A DNA stretch of 64,000 bases from an uncultured Pseudomonadales bacterium. Its GTDB lineage: Bacteria > Patescibacteriota > Microgenomatia > UBA1400 > PJMF01. Numbering within the stretch: position 1 is the stretch's first letter; every line of letters begins with the position of its first letter. Shown here in pieces: positions 10,056 to 60,346 of this stretch. Under the pieces are notes generated by a model. That model worked only from the letters and a program-made list of their open reading frames with translations. It was not told the origin of the DNA and did no database searches. Both the position numbers and the translations under genes were made by a program. The stretch lies in NCBI GenBank assembly GCA_964588685.1, contig CAZPQG010000002.1, positions 35,481 through 99,480 on the forward strand. The letters run 5' to 3'.

Positions 10056-10070
10056 TGTTAAAGGTAGAAC

Positions 10071-11207: not shown

Positions 11208-11236
11208 AATTAATTAAGATTATTTTTAATAATCGC

Positions 11237-13549: not shown

Positions 13550-14926
13550 TTAAGCCGCCCTTGCTCTCTCGATATTAGCCCCCAGTGATCTAAGCTTAAC
13601 ATCAATCTGTTCATAACCACGATCAATTTGATTAACATCCGTCAAAATTGTTTGGCCCTGTCCGCTGATAGCAGCCAATAATATTGTGGCACCGGCCCTA
13701 AGATCGCAGACTTTGAATTTACCGCCGGTAAACTGAGTTGGACCGCTGATTTTAATGGCATGAATATCACTTTCTTTTCTATCTTTCCAATTAAAATTAT
13801 ATATTTTTTCCGGATAAGGTACATCCAGTTCGATTGGCTTAATGTCAGCGCCCATTTTGTTTAAATGTTCAATATATTGGAAACGATTTTGCATCACCGT
13901 TTCATGAACAATACTATCCCCCTCAGCTTGAGAAATTAAAGTAGTCCACAACGGCTGCCAATCAGTCATAAATCCGGGATGTATGCCGGTAGCAACATCA
14001 GTGGCGCGTAATTTGTCCTGATAAAAAAATCTTGCACCGTAATTACCCGCCTCGAAACCTCCTCCTGCTTCCTCCAGTTTATCAATAAAAGCCGTAAAAT
14101 CTTGACACTGCGCGTTCTCAATAATAACATCGCCTTTAGTGGCCACGGCTGCACAGGCATAACTCACAGCTTCATTCCGGTCAGGCATTACTTGGTGAAT
14201 AGCCCCATGCAGCTGTGATACTCCTTCTATTTCAATCACTCTATTAGCCCGTCTTCTCACGCGGGCTCCCATTTCATTTAAAAATAAAATTAAATCATCA
14301 ATTTCCGGCTCTTGAGCGGCATTCTCCAAAATTGTTGTTCCCTCAGCTAAAACGGCAGCCATAATTAGTGTCTCGGTACCGGTATGAGTATTTTTTGCAA
14401 AACGATAATTAGCGCCGATTAATTGGTCTGTTTCCAGATGTAAAAACCCATCATGATATTCATAATCCACTCCTAATTTTTTTAAACCGGCTAAATGCCT
14501 GTCTAAGGGACGGACTCCTATTTGATCACCACCGGGTAGAGGTAGTTTGGCTTTACTAAATTTTGCTAATAACGGACCGATAAACAAAGTAGAAGCTCTT
14601 GATAATGGGCCGTATTCATTAGCAATTTCAAATTGATCAATTCCCCGGGGATCAAGAAACAGCATTTTAGGACCTGCTTCCCACACCTTGCCTCCTAATT
14701 TTTTAATAACATCAGCTACTAAATAAACGTCTTCAATATCAGGCAAGTTCAACAGACAGCTTTTACTATCTGCCATCAGAGAAGCAATCATTAATTTATA
14801 AGAAGCATTTTTAGCTCCACCCAACCTCACTACGCCGCTTAAAGGAGTGCCGCCCTGGATAACGAGCTTAGTTTGATTTAACTTGTTTTCCGGTGAGCCA
14901 TTATTACTAAAATTCATAGAATTCAT
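13550..14926 (-). CDS. murA: UDP-N-acetylglucosamine 1-carboxyvinyltransferase; active-site Cys replaced by Asp
   Basis: LGGAKNASYKLMIASL and EPT fold. The position of E. coli Cys115 reads PGGDQIGVRPLD. Confidence 0.85.
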   Translation of the reverse strand: MNSMNFSNNGSPENKLNQTKLVIQGGTPLSGVVRLGGAKNASYKLMIASLMADSKSCLLNLPDIEDVYLVADVIKKLGGKVWEAGPKMLFLDPRGIDQFEIANEYGPLSRASTLFIGPLLAKFSKAKLPLPGGDQIGVRPLDRHLAGLKKLGVDYEYHDGFLHLETDQLIGANYRFAKNTHTGTETLIMAAVLAEGTTILENAAQEPEIDDLILFLNEMGARVRRRANRVIEIEGVSQLHGAIHQVMPDRNEAVSYACAAVATKGDVIIENAQCQDFTAFIDKLEEAGGGFEAGNYGARFFYQDKLRATDVATGIHPGFMTDWQPLWTTLISQAEGDSIVHETVMQNRFQYIEHLNKMGADIKPIELDVPYPEKIYNFNWKDRKESDIHAIKISGPTQFTGGKFKVCDLRAGATILLAAISGQGQTILTDVNQIDRGYEQIDVKLRSLGANIERARAA

Positions 14927-30954: not shown

Positions 30955-31791
30955 ATGAATGAACCTCTGAGTTCAGCTGAAATTAAACGACTGACTAACA
31001 CAGCACAAGTGGTGAGAATTAAAATAATTGAGATGCTAGCTCGAGCCGGGTCCGGGCATCCGGCCGGAGCTCTAGGCATGACTGATATTTTTACAGCGCT
31101 ATATTTTAAATTACTCAAACATCGACCTGACCAACCGGACTGGGATCAACGTGACTACCTTCTTTTATCAAATGGACACATCTGTCCGGTCTTATATGTT
31201 TGTTTGGCTGTGGCTGGTTATTTTCCGGTCGAAAAATTAACTCAACTACGGCAAATAGACAGCCCTTTGCAAGGTCATCCTAAATTATCATCATTACCTG
31301 GTGTTGAAATTACCTCCGGTTCTTTAGGTCAGGGTTTATCTCAAGCTTGCGGCTTGGCGCTGGCATTAAAACACGATCAAAAAAATAATCATATTTATTG
31401 TTTAATGAGTGATGGTGAGCAACAAGAAGGCCAAACTTGGGAGGCATATATGCTGGCTGCTAAATATCAATTAATAAATTTAACAGCCATTATTGATCGC
31501 AATATGATTCAAATCGGCGGCAGGACTGAACAAATTATGCCCTTGGAAAATCTTGTGGCAAAACTTAAATCTTTTGGCTGGCAGACTTTAGCAATTGACG
31601 GTCATAATTTAAATAACATTGCTGCTGCAGTCTCAGAAGCCAAATCAGATAATGCTCCCACTGCGATAATAGCCAATACAATTCCGGGGAAAGGTGCTGA
31701 TTTAATGGAACATGATCATCGCTGGCACGGCAAAGCTCCAACTTTAGAACAAGCTCAACAAATTATTCGTAATCTAGCTTCAAAACCATGA
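30955..31791 (+). CDS. Transketolase, N-terminal (TPP pyrophosphate-binding) subunit
   Basis: GHPAGALGM, GHICPVLY, and GSLGQGLSQACG TPP motif; its stop overlaps the start of the next gene. Confidence 0.8.
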   Translation: MNEPLSSAEIKRLTNTAQVVRIKIIEMLARAGSGHPAGALGMTDIFTALYFKLLKHRPDQPDWDQRDYLLLSNGHICPVLYVCLAVAGYFPVEKLTQLRQIDSPLQGHPKLSSLPGVEITSGSLGQGLSQACGLALALKHDQKNNHIYCLMSDGEQQEGQTWEAYMLAAKYQLINLTAIIDRNMIQIGGRTEQIMPLENLVAKLKSFGWQTLAIDGHNLNNIAAAVSEAKSDNAPTAIIANTIPGKGADLMEHDHRWHGKAPTLEQAQQIIRNLASKP

Positions 31792-32831
31792 ATTCTAATT
31801 CAACATCAGTTATTGATGAACCATTAGCAACCAGAGACGGGTTTGGTCTTGGGTTAGTACAAGCCGCTCAAGTTAATCCGGCTGTCTTTGCCTTAACAGC
31901 TGATTTGACCAAATCTTTAAGAATGACTAAATTTAAAGAAAAATTTCCTGATCGGTTCGTACAAGTTGGTGTGGCTGAACAAAATTTAATCGGAACTGCG
32001 GCTGGTTTATCTTTAGCCGGAAAAATTCCTTTTGCAGCCAGTTTTGCTGTCTTTAGTCCAGCTCGAAGTTGGGATCAAATTAGATTGTCAGTAGCTTACA
32101 GTAATTTAAATGTAAAAATTGTTAGCTCTCATGCCGGATTAGCCACCGGCGCTGACGGGGCCTCGCACCAATCATTGGAAGATATTGGTTTGATGAGAGT
32201 TTTGCCTAACATGAAAGTGATTGAGCCTTGCGACGCTGAACAAGCCCGGCAAGTAGTACACGCTCTGGCGGCTGATCAAGGCCCAGCTTATTTAAGACTA
32301 ACCCGGCCGAAAGCACCTATTATTACTCAGCAACAAAAATTTGTTTTAGGGCAAGCTCAAGTTTTGTATCCCGACCCGGAAACAGAAAGTCAAAAGCGTG
32401 CTACAGTGAACAACAAACAAAAAGAAACAAATCGAACATCAGTTAATTATGAAGCAGTTATTATTGCTTGCGGCAGTATGGTGCATCAGGCTTTAAAGGC
32501 TGCCCGCCAACTAAAAAATGAAAATATTTCAGTACAAGTGATTAATATGCACACTATTAAGCCCCTTGACAAACAAGCTCTTATTGAAGCTGCTAAACAG
32601 GCAAAAATAATCCTCACGGCAGAAGATCATCAAATTAACGGCGGATTAGGTTCTGCAGCAGCAGAAGTGTTATTAACGTCACAAGAATTAATCTCGCCGC
32701 ATCAATTTAAATTCAGCATGATTGGAGTTAGAGATAAATTTGGAGAATCCGGCCGGCCCGAAGAGCTAAGAGAAAAATACGGCCTCAGCAGTGAAAAAAT
32801 TACACAAACGATTAAAAATTTGTTGGATTAA
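31788..32831 (+). CDS. Transketolase, C-terminal (pyrimidine-binding and C-terminal domain) subunit
   Basis: Transketolase Pyr domain and C-terminal domain pattern; 4-nt overlap with the upstream subunit. Confidence 0.8.
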   Translation: MNSNSTSVIDEPLATRDGFGLGLVQAAQVNPAVFALTADLTKSLRMTKFKEKFPDRFVQVGVAEQNLIGTAAGLSLAGKIPFAASFAVFSPARSWDQIRLSVAYSNLNVKIVSSHAGLATGADGASHQSLEDIGLMRVLPNMKVIEPCDAEQARQVVHALAADQGPAYLRLTRPKAPIITQQQKFVLGQAQVLYPDPETESQKRATVNNKQKETNRTSVNYEAVIIACGSMVHQALKAARQLKNENISVQVINMHTIKPLDKQALIEAAKQAKIILTAEDHQINGGLGSAAAEVLLTSQELISPHQFKFSMIGVRDKFGESGRPEELREKYGLSSEKITQTIKNLLD

Positions 32832-38960: not shown

Positions 38961-41081
38961 TTAAGTGTTATTTTTTTGGATAAAGAGATCAATCAAAAAT
39001 TCTAAATGTTCATCTGCATCTTCCTCAATTAAGTCAAAACCTTTATTAATATCGTCTCTGCTGATGTTAGCAGCAAACGACTTATCGCCCAATTTCTTTT
39101 TAACTTTGCTTGGCTTCATACCCACAAAATCTTTGGGCCTCATCAGAGAATAGGCATATAAAAACCCACTTAATTCATCGCAAGCAAAAAGATAACGATC
39201 AAGCATTGCGCTGGGCTCAACTTTGGTCCTCAAAGGGGCATGAGCTCTCACGGCTTCAATAAGTTCTAAGGGATAATCAGTTAACAACTCTTCGGCTGCC
39301 TTTAACGGGTGCTCATCCGGATATTTTTCCCAATCTAAATCATGCAATAAGCCGGTTTGATACCATAATTCCGGATTTTGTCCTAGTTTCTCAGCATAAG
39401 CTGCTAAAGCTTGAGCAGTCATCAAACAGTGGTGTCTTAAATTTTTATTTTTTATATATTGATGCATTAATTTTGTAGATTCCTCTCGAGTAGGAAGCTC
39501 GACTGCAGCTGAAGCAGCGGCGGTGTTACTAGAGCCAGCTTGCGCATCCTCCTTCTGTTTAACTGCCTTCTCTTGCCCTTGATCAGTTTTTTGATTATTG
39601 ATTTTTTCCGGCTGACGAGGAGCTTGTTGTGAAAACTCAGGTTTTAAAGTTGGAAATGCAATTACTTCTTTAATTGACCAAGTATTAGTTAAAAACATTA
39701 CTAACCGATCAATGCCCATGCCTATTCCTCCTAAAGGCGGCAGGCCGTATTCTAAAGCTCTTAAAAAATCTTCATCAGTCGGATGAGCCTCTTCGTCTCC
39801 GGCTCTCATCTGCTGCTGTTCATTTTTAAAAAGATTTCTCTGATCAATCGGATCTACTACCTCGCTCCAGCCGTCAGCTAACTCTTTGCCGCCGACATAG
39901 GCTTCAAAGCGTTCACAATACCAATCATCTTCGCGGTGAACTTTAGCCAGCGGGCTGACATCACGAGGATAATCAATAATCCATACCGGTTGAATTAATT
40001 TATCTGTGACTAATTTGTCAAACAAATTAAACATTGCTTTGCCACGACTATAACCGCCCGGCAAGTCAATTTCATGTTCAGTTAAAAGTTGTTTGACGGC
40101 TTGATCATCCAACTGTTTAAAATCAATCTCAGCAAACTCTTGCAAAGCATCAATCATCTTAATACGCGGCCAGCTGCCGCTTAAGTCAATACTTGTTTCA
40201 CCGACCATTATTTCATGACTGCCATGAATAACCTGCGTCAGCTCTTGAATCATTTCTTCAGCTATATCCATCATAGTATGATAATCAGCGTAAGCCTGAT
40301 ACCATTCAATCATAGTAAATTCAGGCTGGTGAGTTTGGTCAATACCTTCATTTCTAAAATTACGGGCAATTTCAAAAATCCGTTCATAACCACCTACAAT
40401 CAATCTTTTTAAATATAATTCCGGGGCAATTCGCAAATAAAAATCACTGTCCAAGGCATTCATATTGGTGGAAAACGGACGGGCATTAGTGCCGCCGTAT
40501 ATAGCCTGTAGGACAGGTGTTTCCACTTCAGTGTAATTGTGTTTTTCCTGTAAAAATCGACGCATTTCTTTGAGTATTTTCCAGCGCGTATCTAAAATTT
40601 GGCGGACATCGTCATTAATCAAAATATCTACATATCTTTGACGAAACCGCACCTCTTTATCTTCTGCTGCATTCCATTCAGTCGGAATTGGCCGCAAAGC
40701 TTTGCCTAAAAACTTAAATTTTTCTGCTTGAATAGTTAATTCACCCGCCTTTGTTTTAATGACTTCTCCGCTTACTCCTAGAAAGTCTCCCGGATCTATA
40801 TGCTGCAAAAGTTCAAATTGTTTTTTTGACAACTCGTCTTGGCGAAGCATTACCTGTATAACAGCTGTCGAATCTTTAAGATCTAAAAAAACTACCTTAC
40901 CGTGTGGTCGTTTCGCCATGATTCGACCTGAAGTTTTGGCTTGACCACCCACACCAGTTCCAATAAGCTCTTCAATAGTTTGTTGTTTATCAAAGCTATA
41001 GGGATGAATATCAACGCCTTGATCTTGCAAAGCTTTCCGCTTTTGGATTTTAGCTTTAATAGCAGATTCTAATCTTGACAT
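38961..41081 (-). CDS. lysS: Lysyl-tRNA synthetase (class II) fused to a C-terminal HD-domain phosphohydrolase
   Basis: Residues ~1-480 carry LysRS motifs (FRNEG, GGIGMGIDRL). They are followed by a Q/K-rich linker and an HD core LRHH...LLHDLD (roughly 38961..39550). Confidence 0.85.
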   Translation of the reverse strand: MSRLESAIKAKIQKRKALQDQGVDIHPYSFDKQQTIEELIGTGVGGQAKTSGRIMAKRPHGKVVFLDLKDSTAVIQVMLRQDELSKKQFELLQHIDPGDFLGVSGEVIKTKAGELTIQAEKFKFLGKALRPIPTEWNAAEDKEVRFRQRYVDILINDDVRQILDTRWKILKEMRRFLQEKHNYTEVETPVLQAIYGGTNARPFSTNMNALDSDFYLRIAPELYLKRLIVGGYERIFEIARNFRNEGIDQTHQPEFTMIEWYQAYADYHTMMDIAEEMIQELTQVIHGSHEIMVGETSIDLSGSWPRIKMIDALQEFAEIDFKQLDDQAVKQLLTEHEIDLPGGYSRGKAMFNLFDKLVTDKLIQPVWIIDYPRDVSPLAKVHREDDWYCERFEAYVGGKELADGWSEVVDPIDQRNLFKNEQQQMRAGDEEAHPTDEDFLRALEYGLPPLGGIGMGIDRLVMFLTNTWSIKEVIAFPTLKPEFSQQAPRQPEKINNQKTDQGQEKAVKQKEDAQAGSSNTAAASAAVELPTREESTKLMHQYIKNKNLRHHCLMTAQALAAYAEKLGQNPELWYQTGLLHDLDWEKYPDEHPLKAAEELLTDYPLELIEAVRAHAPLRTKVEPSAMLDRYLFACDELSGFLYAYSLMRPKDFVGMKPSKVKKKLGDKSFAANISRDDINKGFDLIEEDADEHLEFLIDLFIQKNNT

Positions 41082-41812: not shown

Positions 41813-43813
41813 TTATTCCCCTAAAACTAGGACTGCATCAAATTCTTCCGTCGGATCTTCAGTTCTAATTTCCTCAGAAAAAACCAGTTCCTGTTCTAAA
41901 TCTTCAGCCATTGTCTCTAGCAGAAGATCATCACGTTCAGCCATTAATAAATAAAAACCCGGTTCATAGGTATCAACTGCATTTTTAGCTTCAACTTCAC
42001 CATAACCTAAGTCTAATAATTCTGTAGAAATTTCTCCGGCATAACCTGCTTGAGTGGTGGCATTTACCACTCTTATTGAATATTCGGAGCGATCAATTTC
42101 CGGCTCCGGAGTAGGGGAGGGCTCTTCTTCAATTGTTTCAGGCTCTTCAACTTCAGTCGTTGTTTCCTGATCACCGGTCACCGGGGTCCGAATAGTGTCT
42201 GGTTGAGACAATTTTAATACTCCATAGCCAACGCCGATGCCAACCGCAACAGTTAATGCAAATGCTCCAAAGCCAACCAAAATCATTTTTAACAGGCCGC
42301 TGGTGCCATCATCATTTTTAATAGTTCTTTTCATGGTAGGCTGCTCCTTTGACTTTAAATTTTGTTTAGCTGATAATTTTTTTTCTTTACGTTTACTAGT
42401 GAATTTACTTAGGTCAACAGCAAACATATCACCATCCTCTTCTTTCTTTTTTTGATCAGATTGATCTACTTCTTTACTTTCAGCTGCCTCTTGAGCGCTG
42501 TCTTTAATTACTGCAGTTGATGCTGAAGCTGCTGCTGGCGCTGCTTGAGCAGCCGGCTGATAAACTCGTTTGCCAGCTTTGTCAGCTGATTTTTCCTCAG
42601 TGCCGCTGTCTGCTTGAGTCGCTCTTTCTGCTTCGTTTTTCTTAGATTGTTTTTCTTCTTGTGTTGAGATTGCCGTTTCTGGTTCCGGTTCTTCTTTTTT
42701 ATCATTTGTTTCTTGAGCTTGGCCCCCAGTTTTTTCAGCAACTGCTGCATCGTCTAGATCTATGGACGATTCAGGCTCAATTTCAACATCAGCCCTTTCA
42801 GTATCAGCAGCGTTCTTTTCATCGTCTGACATTGCTGCTGATTTTTCGCCCGGCTTAGGCAATTGGCCGGCAGCTCCATTTTTTTCTTCAGGAACTTTTT
42901 TTGCAGCATCAATTTCAACTGCTGCTTTTTTAAATTGATCTTTAATTTCAGCTGAAACTTTTATCTTTTCTCGGTTAAATTCAGGAATCTCAAATTCATC
43001 AATACTAATCGTACGCATGGCAATAGTCATAGCTTCTGCCACATAATTCGGCAATTCATCGCCATTCTCTTTTTGAACCAATTGTTGAATCGGTAAAATA
43101 TCATCCAACTTCTCTTTTAATTCATCTTCTACTGCCTCATTGGATAATAAATAAGCCGTTTGCAGGCTAGGCTCAACGCCTTTCAAGGTTTTAATTGCTT
43201 CTACAAACCGATCAATATTTTTTATGGAATCCACCATCGGCTGGTCTACACCAATATAATGTTTAGCCATAAATAAATTTTCTCCCAGCTGCAACAACGA
43301 AACAGAAGGTTCGAGAGAAATGATAGATTTAATAGTCCAGCTTAAGGGGTAAATTTTATTAAAAACAACTTTTTTACTTTCAAAAGCGTATTTAAGAGGA
43401 GCCAATATAGAATGCTGAACTGTTGATAATTGAACTTTAAAACTACCTTTATACTCACTTAAAATAAAAGTTTCGATTAAGTGCGAATCTGGAGAAATAT
43501 GTAAGCTAGGGATAACTTCTTCTGTTAAATGCTCTTTTACTTGAGCTTCATTTTCTTTTTCCAGATCAATAATAGTATTGGTAAACATTTCATCAGCCAA
43601 AACTATTTCAATTTCACCTTCCTCGAGTTTATCTTCAACCCTGGCTGCTAATTTAACAATGTTCTCAGGAATAAGCTGCCCGTCTTTAATGAGCTTACCA
43701 TTAAATTGCTTAAAACTTTGGATTGAAAAATTATGAGGTTTTTTGCCAGGTAAAAATTCAGCTAAATAAGCTAAATTTGGCAAAATGTATAAAAGTTTTT
43801 GGGTATCAAGCAT
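41813..43813 (-). CDS. Hypothetical bitopic protein: ~330-aa cytoplasmic domain, ~200-aa acidic/Lys-rich disordered linker, single TM, C-terminal LytR_C-like domain
   Basis: TM at LLKMILVGFGAFALTVAVGIGVGYGVL. C-terminal IRVVNATTQAGYAGEISTELLDLGYGEV...YLLMAER resembles the LytR_C/DUF4115 consensus. N-domain unassigned. Confidence 0.35.
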   Translation of the reverse strand: MLDTQKLLYILPNLAYLAEFLPGKKPHNFSIQSFKQFNGKLIKDGQLIPENIVKLAARVEDKLEEGEIEIVLADEMFTNTIIDLEKENEAQVKEHLTEEVIPSLHISPDSHLIETFILSEYKGSFKVQLSTVQHSILAPLKYAFESKKVVFNKIYPLSWTIKSIISLEPSVSLLQLGENLFMAKHYIGVDQPMVDSIKNIDRFVEAIKTLKGVEPSLQTAYLLSNEAVEDELKEKLDDILPIQQLVQKENGDELPNYVAEAMTIAMRTISIDEFEIPEFNREKIKVSAEIKDQFKKAAVEIDAAKKVPEEKNGAAGQLPKPGEKSAAMSDDEKNAADTERADVEIEPESSIDLDDAAVAEKTGGQAQETNDKKEEPEPETAISTQEEKQSKKNEAERATQADSGTEEKSADKAGKRVYQPAAQAAPAAASASTAVIKDSAQEAAESKEVDQSDQKKKEEDGDMFAVDLSKFTSKRKEKKLSAKQNLKSKEQPTMKRTIKNDDGTSGLLKMILVGFGAFALTVAVGIGVGYGVLKLSQPDTIRTPVTGDQETTTEVEEPETIEEEPSPTPEPEIDRSEYSIRVVNATTQAGYAGEISTELLDLGYGEVEAKNAVDTYEPGFYLLMAERDDLLLETMAEDLEQELVFSEEIRTEDPTEEFDAVLVLGE

Positions 43814-47766: not shown

Positions 47767-48786
47767 TTACTCGCTATCAACAACTGCCTCAATTCCAGCT
47801 TGAAAAGCTTCAAAAATATTAGTGGGCTGATTTTGTTCATCAAAAAAACTAAATTGAGAAAATTGTCCCGGAGCTCCTCGTAATATAAAGGGTGTAATGC
47901 CGATTACTTTAGGATGTGACCAAATATGCTGCATGGCATATAAATAATAACTTTTAAGCCAGGGGCGAGTATAGTGATTATCAACCCAGCCGGTTTCAGT
48001 AATAATTACCTTAAAATCTTTACCTGTTCTTTTCTTTAAAAAGTTAAGCTCATGTTCAAAGCCGCGAATTGAATCTTGAGCGGTTCGCGTTGGACTGGAG
48101 GAAAAACCAGGATTTGGATAAGAGTGAGAATTCCAAACATCAATATGATCAAAAATCCAAGGATTATGAGCCAGCATTTTTTTCAAATAAGTAAAAGCTT
48201 CCATGGTTTCATCTGAATTTGGAGCTGCTAAGTCCATTGCAGCCGGCATTACTACGTAATCCGCCTGCTCAGTATTTGCCCAGCTGGCAGCAAACTCTAA
48301 AACTTGAGTATAACTAAGTGGATCAACTTGACCTCCCCATTCCTGAGCATGATTTACTTCATTAAAAATAATCACGTGCCGTTGCTCAGTCGGCCAATCT
48401 AACTTATCCATAAACTGAAACATTTTTACGATCTGGTATCTAGTAGGACGGGCCCAAACACCAGGCTCTTCATGAAAAGTGGCTAGTCTTAATAGAGGAA
48501 TAAATTTATTTTTGCCGGCCTCCTGAAAAAATTTTTGCCACAGCTCCAACTGATTCAAGTCATTAACAGTTAATGGAATTGTTAAAAAATGCCAATCATC
48601 TTTCATTGCACCTTCTTTTAACAACAACTTAGCACTGTCTAAATCAGTTGGAGAAAGAATATGTACTCCTAAAACTTTATTTTCAATAGCTTGAGCTGAT
48701 GATGGGCGGAAAAGCTGCCCAAAAAAAAGGGAGGCGATAAAAATTACAATAAAAATTGGATGAAGTAAAAAATGTTTCAAACGCAT
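47767..48786 (-). CDS. Secreted clan GH-A (TIM-barrel) glycoside hydrolase-like protein
   Basis: Signal peptide/TM; FNEVN (NEP-like acid/base) and ITETGW (TExG nucleophile) motifs typical of the GH5/26/113 clan. Confidence 0.45.
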   Translation of the reverse strand: MRLKHFLLHPIFIVIFIASLFFGQLFRPSSAQAIENKVLGVHILSPTDLDSAKLLLKEGAMKDDWHFLTIPLTVNDLNQLELWQKFFQEAGKNKFIPLLRLATFHEEPGVWARPTRYQIVKMFQFMDKLDWPTEQRHVIIFNEVNHAQEWGGQVDPLSYTQVLEFAASWANTEQADYVVMPAAMDLAAPNSDETMEAFTYLKKMLAHNPWIFDHIDVWNSHSYPNPGFSSSPTRTAQDSIRGFEHELNFLKKRTGKDFKVIITETGWVDNHYTRPWLKSYYLYAMQHIWSHPKVIGITPFILRGAPGQFSQFSFFDEQNQPTNIFEAFQAGIEAVVDSE

Positions 48787-49013: not shown

Positions 49014-49673
49014 ATGAAAAAAATTTGGAAAACTTTACTGTGGCTGTCGTTTGCAACTTCCACCATTTTATCAAGTATTATTCTCTTTTGTTTATTTTAT
49101 CAAACCCCGCAAACTACCATTGTGCAGCAAGAATTACAGCAGGTCAGTATTAACTCCAGCAACCAAGAAAATACTAAGGTGCAAGGAATACAAAGCACTG
49201 TTAAACTGGAAGACGCTCGAGCAGAAATTGTAGCAAATTTTTTAGCCCAGCACAATTCTCCTTTAAGACCTTACACTTATTACGGTCAATTGCTAGTTAA
49301 AATCGCAGACCGCCATCAATTAGATTTTAGATTTTTGCCTGCTATTATGATGCAAGAAAGCAATCTGTGCAAAAATATTCCTGAAGGGACTTATAACTGC
49401 TTAGGTTTTGGCATTCATTCCGGAGGCACTTTAGGTTTTGAAAGCTATGAGGCAGGTTTTGAACGAGCAGCTCGAGAACTACGCGCCAATTATGTAGAAC
49501 AAGGCAGAATTAAAGTCTCAGAAATAGCTCGCAAATATACTGCCAGTGTTGATCAGTGGACTAATGCAGTCAGCCAATTTATGTCTGAAATGGAATATGA
49601 TGATCGACAAAAGGGAATTGAGAAAAGAGGTGATGCCAGTGTTTTGGAATACGTAAGGTTGGATGAATTATAA
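49014..49673 (+). CDS. Membrane-anchored lysozyme-like/SLT-like domain protein
   Basis: N-terminal TM; AIMMQESNL resembles the lytic transglycosylase catalytic E-S motif. Weak assignment. Confidence 0.3.
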   Translation: MKKIWKTLLWLSFATSTILSSIILFCLFYQTPQTTIVQQELQQVSINSSNQENTKVQGIQSTVKLEDARAEIVANFLAQHNSPLRPYTYYGQLLVKIADRHQLDFRFLPAIMMQESNLCKNIPEGTYNCLGFGIHSGGTLGFESYEAGFERAARELRANYVEQGRIKVSEIARKYTASVDQWTNAVSQFMSEMEYDDRQKGIEKRGDASVLEYVRLDEL

Positions 49674-54556: not shown

Positions 54557-55651
54557 ATGAAAAAAAATAAAAAAGAATTTGATGCAAAAAATATAGATTC
54601 ATTGGAAAAAATCAAAAAAATTGACAAGGAAAATGTGCTTGGCTCAATCGAGGCTTTACCTGACCAAATACGCCAGGCCTGGCAAGAAACCAAGCAACTT
54701 GATTTTGACCTCAACCAATCCATTCATAATATTACCGTAGCTGGAATGGGAGGCTCCGGTTTGGGAGCTGATGTTGTTAAGCACGCCTTTAAAAATGAAC
54801 TTGAAGTGCCCTTAAACATTGTCAACAGCTACTTACTACCCGGCTATATTAAATCTGATTCTTTGGTAATTTTATCCAGCTACTCAGGTAATACTGAAGA
54901 AGTACTAAGCTGTGCAGAGCAAGCGCAAGAGAAAAAAGCACAAATATTAGTTATTACCCAAGGTGGAAAGCTGGCTAAAATTGCTCAGCAAAATAACTAT
55001 CCAACTTATATGATCAAGCCGGACCACAATCCCTCTGACCAACCAAGAATGGCTATTGGCTATGCCATTGTTGGTTTAATGGGTTTGCTGCACCAAGCTG
55101 AATGCATTCAAATTAAAGATACTGAAATCGAACAAATAGTAGAGACAGTTTTAACCAACATGCATCAGTGTTCTGTGGATAGGAAAAGCGACAACAACCC
55201 GGCCAAAACATTGAGCTACACTTTAATTGACCGACGGCCCAATATTGCCACTGCTCAATTTTTAAACGGAGCCGGACATGTAGCCTCAAACCAATTCAAT
55301 GAAAATGCTAAAACCTTTGCCAACTACTATCAGATACCGGAAATTAACCACCATTTGCTTGAAGCTTTACAATTTCCGGCCAGCAACAAATTAGATAACT
55401 TTTTCTTATTTTTTAATTCTGACTTATATCATGAAAAAAACAAGCAAAGAATGAAGCTGACGCAAAAAGCAGTAGAGAAGCAGGGCATGGAGTCGCTCAT
55501 GATTAACCTTAAAAGTGATTCTAAGTTGGATCAAATCTTTGAATTAATTACCCTTATGGCTTATGCCAACTTTTATTTGTCGATTTTACAGCAAATTAAT
55601 CCCAGCAAAATTCCAATGGTAGATTGGTTTAAAGAACAATTGTCTAACTAA
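54557..55651 (+). CDS. Bifunctional phosphoglucose/phosphomannose isomerase (archaeal-type, SIS domain)
   Basis: SIS motif VAGMGGSGLGADV; ~360 aa, the size and pattern of the PGI/PMI family. Confidence 0.7.
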   Translation: MKKNKKEFDAKNIDSLEKIKKIDKENVLGSIEALPDQIRQAWQETKQLDFDLNQSIHNITVAGMGGSGLGADVVKHAFKNELEVPLNIVNSYLLPGYIKSDSLVILSSYSGNTEEVLSCAEQAQEKKAQILVITQGGKLAKIAQQNNYPTYMIKPDHNPSDQPRMAIGYAIVGLMGLLHQAECIQIKDTEIEQIVETVLTNMHQCSVDRKSDNNPAKTLSYTLIDRRPNIATAQFLNGAGHVASNQFNENAKTFANYYQIPEINHHLLEALQFPASNKLDNFFLFFNSDLYHEKNKQRMKLTQKAVEKQGMESLMINLKSDSKLDQIFELITLMAYANFYLSILQQINPSKIPMVDWFKEQLSN

Positions 55652-55973: not shown

Positions 55974-58142
55974 ATGCCCGTAGTTAATCCTGCTCATCAA
56001 TTTTTACAATTTCCTAAAACTGAAGTCGGTACATACGCTCTGGATTTAGCTCGATTAGCAGCCAATAAGATTCCTCTCCCACCCACTTACTGCATCCCCA
56101 TCAGTACTTTAAAAAAAATAGGTCAAGCTAATAATCTGCAAACTAAATTTAATAAAATTGCTAACAGCACCGATCTTCAATCTCAAGAAGAACTGGAGCA
56201 AACTGTGGCCAAGATACAAAATTTAATTAGACAACAAGTTTATCCGCATCAAATTTCTAAAAAACTTTTACAATTCTATGCTAAAAAATTAGATAAAGAT
56301 TATATTCGGCTTACAGCCAGCCCGGTAGACGGTAAAAAAATAGATTTTAAACGCGAAGATAATATTAAAGGTGAGGCCAATATGATGGAATCTATTTTAA
56401 ATGTGTGGGCGCTCAACATTGATCTCACTGATATCCAGGACAACAATTTATTTCCGGTCGCCATTGTTATGCAGGCACAAACCCAGCCCATTAGTTCAGG
56501 CCTAGCTTATAGCATGAATATTAATAATGGAGATAAATCTAAAATTACAATCTCTTCAGTGTTTGGAGTATACGCTATTCCGGAATCAGAGCAAGCCCAT
56601 GACACTTATATTATTGATCAGCGCAGCTGGCAAATTTCCCAACAGACTAAAGCAGAAAGCAAACAATTTTTTAAACGGCAGCCTGATCAATTAACAATTC
56701 AACAAAAGCCTAAACTTGGTAACCAATTTAGTTTAAGCACTGACAAAGCTATTGAACTAGCGCATTTAGTTAAAAAAATTAAGTTAACTAGAACAGAGCA
56801 AATTAAAATACATTGGGAACTGCAGAACGATCAGCTACTAATTACAAAAATTAAACCCTATCATTACTCCTCAGCTCACGCTTTTGATCAAGAAAAATAT
56901 ACTACTTTAGTGATAGGGCATGGTGTTACCTCAGGTTTTGTTTCAGGCAGATGCTTTTTAATTGAACAAGCACAAGATGTAAAAGCAATTAAACCGGGCA
57001 TGATAGCAGTAGTTAAAGAATTAACCAGAGAGCATCAAAAGCTTTTGCAAGTCTGCAGTGCCATTATCTGTGAAACAACTATTAAAGATCAATTAATCTT
57101 AAACAAAATTCGAGACTATTCTTTGCCGGTCATTATCTCAGCCCAGCACGCCTTAAAACAACTGCGTAATGAGCAACTGGTGACAGTTGATGCCGCTGCC
57201 GGCAAAGTCTACCAAGTTAAATCAGAGCAAAAAATCGACCAAAAATTAACTGTCAGCAGTAAAACAAAGCTATATTTGGCTGTGAATAATTTTGACGAGA
57301 TATCAGAAAAAATGGCCTTAATTTCAAACGGCATTGGTTTACTGCGCAGCGAACATCTTTTTATCAAAACTGGCTTACACCCACAGCAAATTCTTAAAAC
57401 TAGAGCTAATCAATTTCAAAAAAAGACTGTCAATGATTTGCTCAGATTTTATCATCGCTTTATTAATTTAAAACAACAAGAGCCACTCATAATTTACCGC
57501 TCTAACAATTTAAATGCCAACCAGTTAGCTCAACTGGAAAGCGGTCATATTTATGAAAATATTGAAAATAATCCTTATTTAGGCTTTAGAGGAGGCATCA
57601 GGTATCTCAATCAAAATGATTGGTTTAAGTTTGAACTAAAACTGTTAACAAAAATCAATCAAAAGATTGATAAACCAGTTAATTTACAATTGCCTTTTGT
57701 TCGCTCTGCTTTTGAGCTCAACCAATTATTCCAACAAATTAACAATCAAATTGAAGCACCGGTTTTACAGCCCCCAATTTGGCTGGAAATTGACACCCCT
57801 GAAAATCTGCTGAATGTTGAAGAATATCTCCAAATTCCACTGGCCGGAATTAGTATTAATATTAAAAACATACACGCTTTATTAAATGGGATTGATCCCG
57901 GATTTACCGATATTTATAATCAATATACCCTTAATCATCAGTTGCTTATTCCGGCTCTTAAAAACCTTATTGCCAAAACAAAAGAAATTCATCAAAAAAT
58001 TAAAATTCATTTAATTTTACCTGATTTTTCTGAAAAACTGCTGCAAGAAGCTAAAGATTTAGGAATAGAAGGCGTGATTGTTCGACCCGAAGTTTCAGTA
58101 CAAACTAAAAAATACTTAATAGAACACGAAACAACTTTATAA
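55974..58142 (+). CDS. PEP synthase/PPDK-family three-domain protein apparently lacking the catalytic His and the C-domain Cys (probable pseudoenzyme)
   Basis: PPDK_N-like N-terminus; mobile-domain alignment G.G.TSGFVSG...PGMIAVV...AIICETTIKDQLILNKIRDYSLPVIIS where the consensus has [21 protein letters not shown]; C-domain GIGLLRSEHLF, NPYLGFRGGIRY, LPFVRS retained. Confidence 0.6.
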   Translation: MPVVNPAHQFLQFPKTEVGTYALDLARLAANKIPLPPTYCIPISTLKKIGQANNLQTKFNKIANSTDLQSQEELEQTVAKIQNLIRQQVYPHQISKKLLQFYAKKLDKDYIRLTASPVDGKKIDFKREDNIKGEANMMESILNVWALNIDLTDIQDNNLFPVAIVMQAQTQPISSGLAYSMNINNGDKSKITISSVFGVYAIPESEQAHDTYIIDQRSWQISQQTKAESKQFFKRQPDQLTIQQKPKLGNQFSLSTDKAIELAHLVKKIKLTRTEQIKIHWELQNDQLLITKIKPYHYSSAHAFDQEKYTTLVIGHGVTSGFVSGRCFLIEQAQDVKAIKPGMIAVVKELTREHQKLLQVCSAIICETTIKDQLILNKIRDYSLPVIISAQHALKQLRNEQLVTVDAAAGKVYQVKSEQKIDQKLTVSSKTKLYLAVNNFDEISEKMALISNGIGLLRSEHLFIKTGLHPQQILKTRANQFQKKTVNDLLRFYHRFINLKQQEPLIIYRSNNLNANQLAQLESGHIYENIENNPYLGFRGGIRYLNQNDWFKFELKLLTKINQKIDKPVNLQLPFVRSAFELNQLFQQINNQIEAPVLQPPIWLEIDTPENLLNVEEYLQIPLAGISINIKNIHALLNGIDPGFTDIYNQYTLNHQLLIPALKNLIAKTKEIHQKIKIHLILPDFSEKLLQEAKDLGIEGVIVRPEVSVQTKKYLIEHETTL

Positions 58143-58160
58143 TTATTTATTAATAAATTC

Positions 58161-59423
58161 ATGTCAAAAATAGCTGCCATTAAGGCTAGAGAGATTTTAG
58201 ACAGCCAAGGACTACCTACCCTGCAGATTTTTTTGTGGATTGAAGACGGCAGATCAGTGGCAACCACAGTCCCCAATGAATGGAGTTACGACAACCCGCA
58301 GGCAGCAGTAAGTCGGGATAATGACAACCAGGAATTTAATGGCTTAGGAGTAAAGCAGGCAGTAACAACGATAAACGAAACTATTGCTCCTCAACTGTTA
58401 AATCTCTCTTGTATTCAGCAAGGGGCAATTGATCAAAGTTTACTGGAAATTGACGGCACCGGCAATAAATCTAAGCTGGGAGCAAATACCACTTTGGGCT
58501 TATCAATGGCAGTCTTGAAAGCCGGAGCATTAAGCACCAATTTACCTCTGTACAGCTATATTAGTCAAAAATACCAGTTAACTGATTATTTATCGATTCC
58601 CAATTGTGTTTATTCTCTCATCAATGGCGGCGAGTTCGGCAACGGTAATCTTGATTTTTTAGAATTTGAAATAATTCCAGCCAGCCATGTTTCCTTTCAT
58701 CAATCAATCACCATTGCTTCCACTTTAAAACAAAAAATTAGGGAAGTGATTGACACTAAAGGCGGCTCTGTCTGCATTGGCTCACAAGGTGGATATTTAC
58801 CCAGAATGAATAGCAACAGTGATGTTTTTGAGCTGCTGCTTGAAGCAATTAAAGTTTCTAATTACACTTTTGCTCAAGATGTATTCTTTGGCTTAAACGC
58901 CAATGCCGATGATTTAATCATTGACAACGGCTATCGTCTGCGTGACAAGCCTGATAAGTATAGTGCGGATGATCTTTTAAAGTTGTATTCTCAACTGCGC
59001 GAAAAATATAAAACTATTTATTTAGAAGATCCTTTTGACAGCGGAGATGAAAAGTCATGGCAAAAAATTACCAACCAACTAGGCACCACTACCAACATTG
59101 TGGGAGATGGATTAATTAGAGGCGATAAAGATAAACTGTCTACTGCCATTAAAAAGAATACCTGTAATTCTTTTTGTATTAAAACACTAGATTTTGGGAC
59201 CATTAGCGAAACTATATTTGCTATTAACTTAATAAAAGAAGCAGAGTTGTCATGTATTATTGCTGATCATTCCGGAGAAACTAACGATACTCTGACTGTA
59301 GATTTAGCAGTGGGAGTAGGCGCTGATTATGTTAAGTTCGGCCCTCCGAACAGAGGTGAAAAAATTGTTAAATACAATCGTTTAATAGAAATTAATGAAG
59401 AACTAGGGGCAGCCAATTCCTAA
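58161..59423 (+). CDS. Enolase-superfamily protein (enolase-like) with substitutions at several canonical catalytic/metal residues
   Basis: Aligns end to end with enolase (ILDSQGLPT, SIPN..INGGE, GGYLPR, IKT, SGETND, KYNRLIEI). However, GDEGG becomes GSQGG, MDCAASE becomes NANADD, and SHRSGE becomes ADHSGE. Confidence 0.7.
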   Translation: MSKIAAIKAREILDSQGLPTLQIFLWIEDGRSVATTVPNEWSYDNPQAAVSRDNDNQEFNGLGVKQAVTTINETIAPQLLNLSCIQQGAIDQSLLEIDGTGNKSKLGANTTLGLSMAVLKAGALSTNLPLYSYISQKYQLTDYLSIPNCVYSLINGGEFGNGNLDFLEFEIIPASHVSFHQSITIASTLKQKIREVIDTKGGSVCIGSQGGYLPRMNSNSDVFELLLEAIKVSNYTFAQDVFFGLNANADDLIIDNGYRLRDKPDKYSADDLLKLYSQLREKYKTIYLEDPFDSGDEKSWQKITNQLGTTTNIVGDGLIRGDKDKLSTAIKKNTCNSFCIKTLDFGTISETIFAINLIKEAELSCIIADHSGETNDTLTVDLAVGVGADYVKFGPPNRGEKIVKYNRLIEINEELGAANS

Positions 59424-59725
59424 TTACGACTTCTTTTTAATTTTATTTTACTACCGTTTTTAGTACCGTAAAATTCTGTAGCCTTTCTATTTTTTTTATT
59501 ATCTCACTCCCAAATAAAAGAAGAAACTTAATTTATTTATTTTGATGCTTTTAGATGCATTAATATGTACTTGCCTATTCGCTATCTGTTCGGTTATTCT
59601 TAAATTAATTCGGGTTTTTATATAAAAAGTTTCACTTAAACCCGAAACAGCACAACTATTGATTTAATCAAAAAATTAAATTATTGAATATTTATTAAAA
59701 AATTAAACTATAAAAGGAGGCTTTC

Positions 59726-60346
59726 ATGGTAGTGACTCTTTATAAAAGACAACGGCAAATTTTGGATTTTATTACACAGTACATCCAAAAAAATGGCTAC
59801 GCTCCAACTTTAAGAGAAATAGCAGATGCAATTAATGTCTCTTCTTTAGCAACAGTGCATGAGCATCTAGAGGCTTTAAATCGAAAAAAAGTGATTAAAA
59901 AACACAGCGGTAAAGTAAGAGGTATAGAACTAGTAGATAAAACATTTTTAAGCAATGACGAAAGCGTTGATTTGCCATTATTGGGTTATATCGCTGCAGG
60001 CTCACCTATTGAACCTTACGCAAATGATGACGCCACTTTTAAAGTCTCCCCAGAACTAATTACCGGTAAAAAACGGGCCTATGTTCTACAAGTAAAGGGG
60101 CAATCGATGATTGAGGATCACATTCAAGACGGAGATTATGTAGTGGTAGAAGAAACTTCTGAGGTTGATAACGGTGAAATTGTAGTAGCATTGCTAGACA
60201 ACGGCTTAGCCACTTTAAAAAAATATTATAAAGAAATGACGCGAGTAAGATTAGAACCAGCTAATGCCAATATGAGTCCAATTTACGCCACTAATGTCCA
60301 GATACAGGGTAGGGTAGTTGGTCTCATCAGAAAATTCAGAAACTAA
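59726..60346 (+). CDS. lexA: LexA repressor (S24 peptidase)
   Basis: Winged-HTH N-domain, AG cleavage site (YIAAGSP), catalytic Ser in GQSM and Lys in TLKK; strong AAAGGAGG SD. Confidence 0.85.
   Translation: MVVTLYKRQRQILDFITQYIQKNGYAPTLREIADAINVSSLATVHEHLEALNRKKVIKKHSGKVRGIELVDKTFLSNDESVDLPLLGYIAAGSPIEPYANDDATFKVSPELITGKKRAYVLQVKGQSMIEDHIQDGDYVVVEETSEVDNGEIVVALLDNGLATLKKYYKEMTRVRLEPANANMSPIYATNVQIQGRVVGLIRKFRN

What the first reader, a model, noticed from the sequence alone, without database searches (positions are those of the whole stretch)
58161..59423. Enolase homologue with substitutions in the universally conserved catalytic and metal-binding positions
End-to-end enolase similarity with good anchors (SQGLPT, INGGE, GGYLPR, LEDPFD, VGDGL, CIKT, SGETND, VKYNRL). 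However, by-eye alignment to E. coli enolase gives His159 to Phe (INGGEF), Asp167-Glu168 to Ser-Gln (IGSQGG versus VGDEGG), Mg ligand Asp246 to Asn (GLNANADD versus AMDCAASE), and His373-Arg374 to Asp-His (IADHSGE versus ISHRSGE). Glu209, Glu290, Asp317, Lys345 and Lys396 equivalents appear retained. This pattern is unlikely to support canonical 2-PG dehydration and suggests an enolase-like paralogue with different or no catalysis, for example a moonlighting, structural or RNA-degradosome-type role.
Basis: partly seen in the sequence, partly recalled or inferred. Interest (0 to 1): 0.7.

Follow-up and report, generated by a model that had tools for sequence, protein, structure and literature searches.

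The report
Enolase orthologue with remodelled active site
This candidate-phyla-radiation (CPR, Patescibacteria) bacterium carries, in its normal enolase slot, a well-conserved enolase-fold protein that lacks the acid catalyst and phosphate-gripping residues, so it is probably no longer an ordinary glycolytic enolase although pipelines would name it one.

Summary
The ORF 58161..59423(+) is real and full-length. It is an enolase by fold: Pfam Enolase_N and Enolase_C, TIGR01060 349.6 bits against a cut-off of 300, AF2 model TM 0.94-0.95 to solved enolases.

Software alignments confirm the substitutions (yeast numbering): H159F, E211Q, D246N, H373D, R374H, and loop SGASTG to NEWSYD. E168, E295, D320, K345, S375 and K396 are kept. 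VGDEGG holds E. coli D208/E209, the general acid, and that is what is lost. E168 is retained.

It is not a paralogue. It sits in the conserved PGI, PEP synthase, enolase, iPGM, LexA slot.

In relatives the change is stepwise:
- Tier 1 is canonical.
- Tier 2 lacks only E211, and its neighbouring PEP synthase is degenerate.
- The window clade (14 loci of at least 60% identity, ten of them GTDB species representatives) has the further losses above and no adjacent iPGM gene.

Purifying selection is strong (dN/dS 0.02, like CTP synthase). The new residues are themselves conserved (F159 23/24, H374 22/24).

Most likely it no longer does canonical 2-PG dehydration and was kept for a function that uses the preserved Mg/Lys half-site. 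A rewired, still-active enolase is not excluded, because MurA still needs PEP.

The parts
58161..59423 (+). Enolase-fold ORF (420 aa). It is the positional orthologue of enolase with a remodelled active site.
   Evidence: AF2 model pLDDT 87.9, pTM 0.90. Foldseek TM 0.94-0.95 to solved enolases.
58275..58292 (+). Codons for residues 39-44, NEWSYD. They replace the SGASTG active-site lid, which holds the ligand Ser of the second Mg (yeast S39). The clade consensus is NEWxYxN.
58635..58637 (+). F159, replacing the phosphate-contacting His159. Phe in 23 of 24 clade members.
58782..58787 (+). S208-Q209, replacing D210-E211 (E. coli D208-E209). E211 is the general acid for hydroxide elimination.
58896..58898 (+). 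N246, replacing the Mg(I) ligand Asp246. Among the 24 clade proteins scored, only the window protein has Asn; the other 23 keep Asp.
59265..59270 (+). D369-H370, replacing H373-R374. Across the clade, position 373 is Glu or Asp in 19 of 24 and position 374 is His in 22 of 24.
55974..58142 (+). PEP-synthase-like ORF (722 aa), 18 nt upstream and probably co-transcribed. It is degenerate in all three domains: ATP-grasp GGK to GTY, phospho-His motif TSH to DQL, barrel motif NDL to KNI, and the catalytic Cys lost.
   Evidence: (204.7 bits against a 598 cut-off). dN/dS 0.08-0.09.
59424..59725 (.). 302-nt spacer between the enolase-like gene and lexA. Canonical relatives carry the iPGM gene at this position. 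No iPGM remnant is found here or anywhere in the window.
   Evidence: tblastn with the L005 iPGM gives no hit in the window or in L001-L004. Synteny table.
54557..55651 (+). SIS / bact-PGI_C phosphoglucose isomerase. It is the conserved upstream anchor of the syntenic block.
59726..60346 (+). LexA. It is the conserved downstream anchor of the syntenic block, 75-93% identical across nearly all the related loci where it lies on the same strand.
13550..14926 (-). MurA of the Asp type (GGDQIGVR), next to MurB. It consumes PEP, so the cell still needs a PEP source.

Best explanation
This is the genome's own enolase gene, diverged in place into a non-canonical enolase-fold protein.

Shown:
- It keeps the fold.
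- It keeps the half of the active site that binds Mg(I) and stabilises or abstracts at a carboxylate alpha-carbon: E168, E295, D320, K345 and K396, with D246 as Asn here.
- It has lost the general acid (E211Q), His373 (now Asp), and the phosphate / second-metal clamp (H159F, R374H, Ser39 lid rewritten to NEWSYD).
- Its relatives show a stepwise path. Canonical enolase sits with canonical PEP synthase and iPGM. Then E211 is lost while the PEP synthase degenerates. Then, in this clade, the adjacent iPGM gene is lost and the remaining substitutions appear.
- The gene is under purifying selection as strong as on housekeeping genes.

Inferred:
- It no longer interconverts 2-phosphoglycerate and PEP at a physiologically useful rate.
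- It is retained for another role that still uses the Mg / Lys345 / Lys396 pocket. That role would be binding, or altered chemistry, on a carboxylate ligand that is not held by a phosphate clamp.
- It possibly acts together with the co-retained, equally degenerate PEP-synthase-like neighbour.
For: Residue mapping.

Effect of single mutations: in M. tuberculosis enolase E204A (=E211), D241A (=D246), E163A and K335A were non-functional, and S42A kept about 5% activity (PMC10619443).

Orthology:
- The same PGI, PEPS-like, eno, LexA, CTP-synthase order is found in 14 relatives.
- Canonical relatives have iPGM between eno and LexA (L005).
- Adjacent iPGM counts: tier 1 15 of 20, tier 2 24 of 30, clade A 0 of 12, clade B 0 of 17, counting only loci with an adjacent iPGM or at least 2.5 kb of downstream sequence.
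- No iPGM hit in the 64-kb window.

Tree: the NJ tree nests the clade inside the E211-less tier.

Selection: for the pair L003-L057 the enolase-like gene has dN 0.011, dS 0.53, omega 0.021. The same pair gives CTP synthase 0.012, PGI 0.020 and LexA 0.008.

Conservation of the new residues in the clade: F159 23/24, P210 21/24, E321 20/24, E/D373 19/24, H374 22/24. K345, K396, E168 and E295 are 24/24.

Fold: confident model matching solved enolases.

Neighbour: the PEPS-like protein has lost its ATP-grasp, His and barrel motifs exactly in those genomes whose enolase lacks E211.
Against: - No assay exists. A catalytic group could have moved: Glu or Asp at position 373 lies close to where E211 acts, which I state from knowledge of enolase structures, not from a measurement on the model.
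- The genome keeps an intact-looking MurA, so PEP is still needed. With the PEPS-like protein degenerate, enolase is the obvious PEP source.
- Tier-2 relatives lack E211 yet keep an iPGM with every catalytic motif next door. This suggests E211-less enolases may still work.
- A phosphoglycerate mutase elsewhere in the genome cannot be excluded. Only the 64-kb window plus about 10 kb of upstream sequence was seen.
- The retained charged residues could be kept for structural reasons alone.
Confidence: 0.5

Rival explanations
1. It is still the cell's working enolase with a rewired active site. The acid role of E211 would be taken by the new Asp or Glu at position 373, and phosphate would be held by His374, Ser375 and Mg(I). 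Activity would be lower but sufficient for a slow-growing symbiont that needs PEP mainly for MurA.
For: - Position 373 is acidic in 19 of 24 clade members, and His374 is present in 22 of 24.
- K345, K396, E168, E295 and D320 are kept.
- S42A in the M. tuberculosis enzyme keeps about 5% activity, so the second-metal Ser is not absolutely required.
- MurA is intact while the PEPS-like neighbour is dead.
- Tier-2 enolases lack E211 but keep an intact adjacent iPGM.
- TIGR01060 is still passed.
Against: - Five first-shell residues are changed at once. The single changes E204A and D241A already abolish activity in the M. tuberculosis enzyme.
- Clade members with Gln (4/24) or Ser (1/24) at 373, and the next-nearest homologues with Gln or Lys there, have no acid at that position.
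- The phosphate clamp H159 becomes Phe.
- The adjacent iPGM gene is lost in all 12 clade loci with enough downstream sequence to score.
Confidence: 0.27
2. It is a purely non-catalytic protein. After glycolytic flux was lost, the enolase fold was kept for a moonlighting role such as an RNA-decay complex partner, a surface adhesin, or a partner of the PEPS-like pseudoenzyme.
For: - Strong purifying selection persists despite the loss of catalytic residues.
- Both neighbouring PEP enzymes are degenerate but retained as a pair.
- Enolase is a well-known moonlighting protein in bacteria, and solved complexes with RNase E and with Csm/AcrIIIA2 appear among the fold hits.
Against: - Buried catalytic and metal residues (K345, K396, E168, E295, D320) are invariant or nearly so in the clade. 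A scaffold role does not require this.
- No partner, signal peptide or interaction motif was identified.
- Nothing was tested directly.
Confidence: 0.15
3. One reading: it is an extra enolase-like copy beside a canonical enolase encoded elsewhere in the genome.
For: The whole genome was not available. Only the 64-kb window and about 10 kb further upstream were seen. Lateral transfer of enolase among CPR bacteria has been proposed (PMC7304191).
Against: - The gene sits in the ancestral enolase slot and nests within the enolase tree of related genomes.
- None of the 80 species-representative loci share an assembly accession prefix (my reading of the table), so no genome showed two family members. 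That scan used family-specific patterns and would miss a foreign canonical copy.
Confidence: 0.1
4. It is a decaying gene under relaxed selection, on its way to becoming a pseudogene.
For: Several catalytic residues are lost, a metabolic neighbour gene is lost, and the organism has a reduced symbiont-type genome.
Against: - The ORF is intact and of constant length (418-426 aa) in the 14 related loci, ten of them GTDB species representatives.
- Omega is 0.02, equal to housekeeping neighbours.
- The substituted positions are themselves conserved.
- The fold model is confident.
Confidence: 0.02

Closest known systems
Canonical bacterial enolase (phosphopyruvate hydratase, EC 4.2.1.11; TIGR01060; Pfam PF03952 + PF00113), e.g. 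B. subtilis 4a3r and E. coli 1e9i
   Same: - Same two-domain fold (TM 0.94-0.95), same length, 34% identity.
- Passes the TIGR01060 cut-off.
- Sits in the same genomic slot as the canonical enolase of related Patescibacteria.
- Keeps E168, E295, D320, K345, S375 and K396.
   Different: - H159F, E211Q, D246N, H373D, R374H, Q167L, D321G.
- The Ser39 lid is rewritten to NEWSYD.
- No phosphoglycerate mutase gene next to it.
E211-less 'Pacebacteria-type' enolases of related Patescibacteria (tier 2 here, e.g. L005, L015-L021, P0033-P0120; several are annotated phosphopyruvate hydratase)
   Same: - Nearest outgroup at 45-53% identity.
- Same locus.
- Also lack D210/E211 and also have a degenerate PEPS-like neighbour.
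   Different: Tier 2 keeps S39, H159, D246, H373 and R374, and an adjacent iPGM that looks intact. The window clade has lost all of these.
Engineered enolase active-site mutants: yeast K345A / E168Q / E211Q (Poyner et al. 1996, title cited) and M. tuberculosis S42A / E163A / E204A / D241A / K335A (PMC10619443)
   Same: The window protein naturally carries the E211Q change. It also carries a D246 change (Asn here, Ala in the engineered mutant). The engineered single mutants at both positions are non-functional.
   Different: Those are single laboratory mutations in an otherwise optimal enzyme. Here several changes coexist, are conserved across a clade, and are under purifying selection, so compensation or a new function is possible.
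Sister clade B of enolase-like proteins (L022-L045, L068)
   Same: It has the same ancestry and, like the window clade, lacks an iPGM gene next to the enolase-like gene. It lacks E211 and is also under purifying selection (omega 0.03-0.05).
   Different: It shows a different remodelling: D246N/Q, D320C/Y and R374S, with H159 and H373 mostly kept. The PEPS-like gene is gone. A different iPGM lies 8-10 kb away in eight of the 18 loci.
Recruited or non-catalytic enolases, e.g. tau-crystallin (lens alpha-enolase), and the archaeal enolase-like protein family NF006223 / PRK08350
   Same: The enolase fold is kept for something other than bulk glycolysis. The tau-crystallin example is from my own knowledge and was not tested here.
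   Different: To my knowledge tau-crystallin keeps the catalytic residues. The window protein is not a member of NF006223 (80.7 bits against a 624 cut-off).

Membership tests
Enolase (EC 4.2.1.11; TIGR01060 / PF03952 + PF00113) | Two-domain architecture: an N-terminal capping domain plus a C-terminal barrel, over the full length. | tested here: met
   Pfam Enolase_N covers residues 4-134 and Enolase_C covers 146-418. AF2 model pTM 0.90. TM 0.94-0.95 to solved enolases.
Enolase (EC 4.2.1.11; TIGR01060 / PF03952 + PF00113) | Score above the curated equivalog cut-off. | tested here: met
   TIGR01060 scores 349.6 bits against a cut-off of 300. Annotation pipelines would therefore name it phosphopyruvate hydratase.
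Enolase (EC 4.2.1.11; TIGR01060 / PF03952 + PF00113) | General base Lys345 and the carboxylate-stabilising Lys396 and Glu168. | tested here: met
   K341, K392 and E168 are present. Each is 24/24 in the clade.
Enolase (EC 4.2.1.11; TIGR01060 / PF03952 + PF00113) | General acid Glu211 (E. coli Glu209) in the GDEGG motif. | tested here: not met
   The motif is IGSQGG, so the residue is Q209. The M. tuberculosis E204A mutant is non-functional.
Enolase (EC 4.2.1.11; TIGR01060 / PF03952 + PF00113) | Mg(I) ligand triad Asp246 / Glu295 / Asp320. | tested here: not met
   The window protein has N246 / E289 / D316. The other 23 clade proteins scored keep Asp246. The M. tuberculosis D241A mutant is non-functional. 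The effect of Asn at this position is unknown.
Enolase (EC 4.2.1.11; TIGR01060 / PF03952 + PF00113) | Phosphate / second-metal clamp: the Ser39 lid (SGASTG), His159, and Arg374-Ser375. | tested here: not met
   The lid is NEWSYD, His159 is F159, and Arg374 is H370. Only S371 is kept.
Enolase (EC 4.2.1.11; TIGR01060 / PF03952 + PF00113) | His373 in the water / hydroxyl network. | tested here: not met
   The residue is D369.
Enolase (EC 4.2.1.11; TIGR01060 / PF03952 + PF00113) | Catalysis of 2-PG to PEP. | not testable with these tools
   This needs an enzyme assay or genetic complementation.
Enolase (EC 4.2.1.11; TIGR01060 / PF03952 + PF00113) | Pathway context: a phosphoglycerate mutase that supplies 2-PG. 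| tested here: inconclusive
   There is no iPGM in the 64-kb window or within 10 kb of the gene in clade loci. The rest of the genome was not seen, and cofactor-dependent or archaeal-type mutases were not searched genome-wide.
Enolase superfamily (metal-assisted alpha-proton abstraction from a carboxylate) | Barrel with three metal ligands and a Lys base or stabiliser at the barrel end. | tested here: inconclusive
   E289, D316, K341 and K392 are kept. The first ligand is Asn in the window protein and Asp in the other 23 clade proteins scored. The geometry could not be inspected.
Pseudoenzyme (catalytically impaired homologue kept by selection) | Homologous to an active enzyme, essential catalytic residues replaced, and the gene under purifying selection. 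| tested here: met
   Residue losses are shown. Omega is 0.021. The replacement residues are conserved.
Pseudoenzyme (catalytically impaired homologue kept by selection) | Demonstrated lack of the ancestral activity. | not testable with these tools

The most novel reading that the evidence does not exclude
The enolase family proper has, as far as I know, only one activity. In one Patescibacteria lineage it may have produced something new. One possibility is an enzyme or ligand sensor that keeps the Mg / Lys345 / Lys396 enolisation half-site, has swapped the phosphate clamp for an aromatic pocket (F159, W41, Y43), and works with a co-retained dead PEP-synthase partner. The other possibility is a natural enolase that runs without the textbook general acid Glu211, with the acid moved to position 373. 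Either way, the stepwise series of canonical, then E211-less, then fully remodelled proteins in syntenic loci would be a natural experiment in active-site rewiring.
Probability: 0.3. Interest if true: 0.8.

Novelty: new variant of a known kind. Interest (0 to 1): 0.6.

Why it matters
1. Metabolic reconstructions of CPR / Patescibacteria call glycolytic steps from HMM presence or absence (for example PMC7304191). This protein passes the curated enolase cut-off while lacking the acid catalyst and the phosphate clamp. The PEP-synthase-like neighbour is degenerate in all three domains. So lower glycolysis is probably over-called in a whole lineage: the window clade, its sister clade, and possibly the E211-less tier.

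2. The syntenic series gives three natural stages of enolase active-site change. All three are under purifying selection. That makes the roles of E211, H373, R374 and H159, and possible compensation between them, directly testable.

3. The same genome keeps an Asp-type MurA that needs PEP. The finding therefore raises a concrete question: where does a cell-wall-building symbiont get PEP if both of its PEP enzymes are altered?

Tried and rejected
- Misalignment or artefact: rejected. phmmer and two MAFFT alignments agree, and an independent assembly gives the identical protein.
- Pseudogene: rejected by the intact ORFs and omega 0.02.
- Paralogue: rejected by synteny and tree as far as the data reach.
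- iPGM remnant in the eno-lexA spacer or elsewhere in the window: none found by tblastn.
- A newly gained acidic residue that could replace E211 in the E211-less tier: none was found among tier-specific conserved columns.
- Fisher test linking an intact active site to an adjacent iPGM (p = 9e-13): not used as evidence. The tree shows the adjacency was probably lost once, at the base of clades A and B, so the loci are not independent.
- dN/dS for most pairs: unusable because dS was saturated or undefined. Only close pairs were used.
- Extending context beyond the window: walking upstream gave 10 kb of cell-division and ribosomal genes and no glycolytic genes. Downstream, only short contigs were available.
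- Organism name from cluster look-up: nothing returned.
- Rfam, tRNA and promoter / terminator scans around the gene: nothing relevant.
- Literature searches for degenerate or inactive CPR or bacterial enolases: no report found.
- The 50%-identity representative search gave no close representative (best 49%). It was used only for a census of active-site signatures.
Full report
**1. The observation**

The ORF at 58161..59423(+) is a clean 420-aa reading frame.
- It is an end-to-end enolase by sequence: Pfam Enolase_N 3.2e-39 and Enolase_C 5.1e-56.
- It scores 349.6 bits on NCBI's enolase equivalog TIGR01060, above the 300-bit cut-off.
- Its best solved relative is B. subtilis enolase 4a3r (1e-77, residues 4-416 aligned).
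- An AlphaFold2 model built from 28 clade sequences is confident (pLDDT 87.9, pTM 0.90). It superposes on solved enolases at TM 0.94-0.95.
- The same protein is encoded on an independently assembled contig (L001).

**2. Residue mapping**

The phmmer alignment to PDB enolases and two separate MAFFT alignments agree. In yeast numbering:
- H159 is Phe.
- D210-E211 is Ser-Gln.
- D246 is Asn.
- D321 is Gly.
- H373-R374 is Asp-His.
- Q167 is Leu.
- The lid SGASTG, which carries the second-metal ligand Ser39, reads NEWSYD.
- E168, E295, D320, K345, S375 and K396 are retained (window residue numbers).

VGDEGG is E. coli D208/E209, the proton donor, not D167/E168. So 'Glu209 retained' is wrong, and the true Glu168 is retained.

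**3. What the relatives show**

A protein search and a scan of GTDB species representatives gave 120 proteins and 80 loci. Their active-site signatures fall into tiers.

- **Tier 1** (Collierbacteria, Shapirobacteria, some Woesebacteria; 38-41% identity). Every canonical residue is present.
- **Tier 2** (Pacebacteria-type; 45-53% identity). Canonical except that GDEGG has become G[VIL][GVL]GG, so the general acid is missing, and D321 is usually Ser.
- **The window clade** (14 further loci at 60% identity or more, ten of them GTDB species representatives, and 24 protein clusters).
  - F159 in 23 of 24.
  - Pro210 in 21 of 24.
  - Thr, Leu, Gln or Ile at 211.
  - Glu321 in 20 of 24.
  - Glu or Asp at 373 in 19 of 24.
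  - His374 in 22 of 24.
  - Lid consensus NEWxYxN.
  - K345, K396, E168 and E295 are 24/24. D320 and D246 are 23/24.
  - The Asn at 246 is unique to the window protein among the 24.
- **Sister clade B**. It was remodelled differently: D246N/Q, D320C/Y and R374S.

A neighbour-joining tree nests tier 2 inside tier 1. It places the window clade plus clade B as one derived group inside tier 2.

**4. Orthology and context**

The gene order PGI, PEP synthase(-like), enolase, iPGM, LexA is conserved across these genomes.
- In the window and in every clade member, the order is PGI, PEPS-like, enolase-like, LexA, CTP synthase.
- The iPGM gene is missing. No remnant is detectable in the spacer, in the 64-kb window, or within 10 kb in the relatives.
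- Adjacent iPGM counts, using only loci with an adjacent iPGM or at least 2.5 kb downstream, are 15 of 20 for tier 1, 24 of 30 for tier 2, 0 of 12 for the window clade, and 0 of 17 for clade B.
- The tree indicates a single loss, so these counts are not independent events.

The window gene is therefore the positional orthologue of enolase, not a paralogue. No second enolase exists in the window. The rest of the genome could not be examined.

**5. The neighbour**

The upstream 722-aa ORF (55974..58142) is PEP-synthase-like but scores far below the curated cut-offs (204.7 against 598 bits).
- The phospho-carrier His is Leu (TSH to DQL).
- The ATP-grasp GGK motif is GTY.
- The barrel Mg motif NDL is KNI.
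- The catalytic Cys is lost.
- These mappings come from alignment to P. furiosus PEP synthase and to tier-1 neighbours.
- Only 26-39% of tier-1-invariant columns survive.

Tier-1 genomes have a fully canonical PEP synthase in that position. Nearly every genome whose enolase lacks E211 and that still carries the neighbouring gene has a degenerate version of it; L059 is the one exception seen, with a canonical PEP synthase beside an altered enolase. So the two PEP enzymes changed together.

**6. Selection**

For the least saturated clade pair (L003-L057), the enolase-like gene has dN 0.011, dS 0.53 and omega 0.021.
- The same pair gives 0.012 for CTP synthase, 0.020 for PGI and 0.008 for LexA.
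- The PEPS-like gene gives 0.077.
- Most other pairs are saturated at synonymous sites.

The protein is clearly maintained by selection, and the substituted positions are themselves conserved. This is a shifted constraint, not decay.

**7. Interpretation**

In M. tuberculosis enolase the single alanine mutants at the equivalents of E211, D246, E168 and K345 were non-functional, and the Ser39 equivalent kept about 5% activity (PMC10619443). The window protein combines changes at two of those positions with loss of His159, His373 and Arg374 and a rewritten lid.

The most likely reading (about 0.5) has three parts:
- Canonical 2-PG dehydration is gone or negligible.
- The protein is kept for a role that still uses the preserved Mg / Lys pocket.
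- It possibly acts with the PEPS-like partner.

The main rival (about 0.27) is a rewired but still working enolase. The evidence for that rival is:
- An acidic residue appears at 373 in most clade members.
- The genome keeps an intact Asp-type MurA that consumes PEP.
- Tier-2 genomes keep an iPGM with all catalytic motifs next to an E211-less enolase.

A pure scaffold role (about 0.15) is possible. It does not explain the invariant buried catalytic residues. A decaying pseudogene is excluded.

**8. Novelty**

I found no report of active-site-degenerate enolases in CPR or other bacteria. The CPR glycolysis survey relies on HMM presence or absence.

This is a new variant of a known family rather than a new kind of system. 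It is moderately to highly interesting for three reasons:
- It suggests systematic over-calling of lower glycolysis in a lineage.
- It supplies a natural stepwise series for testing enolase mechanism.
- About 45 of the 150 nearest 50%-identity cluster representatives also show non-canonical signatures, so the phenomenon may be wider. That sample is biased towards divergent sequences.

Noticed in passing
L005:10001-11263, and L015-L021, L024, L027, L031, L035 and others (tier 2); proteins P0033-P0120: Many Pacebacteria-type 'phosphopyruvate hydratases' keep every canonical active-site residue except the general acid. GDEGG is G[VIL][GVL]GG (yeast D210/E211 lost). Yet they lie next to an iPGM whose catalytic motifs are all intact. 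Either these enzymes work without Glu211 or the whole lineage has a dead enolase.
   Followed up: partly
window 55974-58142 (+): The PEP-synthase-like protein is degenerate in all three domains: ATP-grasp GGK to GTY, phospho-His to Leu, Mg motif and Cys lost. It is still under purifying selection (omega 0.08-0.09) and is always paired with the enolase-like gene. Its degeneration coincides on the tree with the loss of E211 in enolase.
   Followed up: partly
L022, L023, L025, L029, L030, L032-L034, L036, L037, L039-L045, L068 (enolase-like gene, mostly at about 10001-11250; other coordinates in the shorter loci): A sister clade has a different remodelling of the enolase active site: D246N/Q, D320C/Y and R374S. 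It has no PEPS-like gene. In eight of the 18 loci a different iPGM (GNSEINH type, 39-42% identical to the tier-2 iPGM) lies 8-10 kb away on the other strand.
   Followed up: partly
window 13550-14926 (-) and 15181-16176 (-): MurA of the Asp type (GGDQIGVR, the fosfomycin-insensitive kind) lies next to MurB within a full mur / fts cell-wall cluster. The cell therefore still needs PEP although both of its PEP enzymes look altered.
   Followed up: partly
L006-L085 record titles: Many GenBank titles for these MAGs say 'uncultured Pseudomonadales', 'Gammaproteobacteria', 'TM6' or 'Limisphaerales'. However, the loci are syntenic with Patescibacteria, and their LexA is mostly 72-91% identical to the window's (lower in the most distant loci). 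The titles look unreliable.
   Followed up: no
P0121-P0270: About 45 of the 150 nearest 50%-identity cluster representatives of enolase show non-canonical catalytic signatures of many kinds. Degenerate enolase homologues may be common in metagenomic lineages. The sample is biased towards divergent sequences.
   Followed up: no
window 38961-41081 (-): A 706-aa class-II aminoacyl-tRNA synthetase (tRNA-synt_2 plus OB anticodon domain) carries an extra C-terminal HD phosphohydrolase domain.
   Followed up: no
window 41813-43813 (-), 47767-48786 (-), 49014-49673 (+), 9297-10055 (-): Four sizeable ORFs (666, 339, 219 and 252 aa) have no Pfam match. The 219-aa ORF and a 321-341-aa ORF on the opposite strand beside it, like the window's 339-aa ORF, recur at the same position in related loci (L002-L004).
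   Followed up: no
window 30955-32831 (+): Transketolase is encoded as two separate, overlapping ORFs: the N-terminal TPP domain (278 aa) and the Pyr plus C-terminal domains (347 aa).
   Followed up: no
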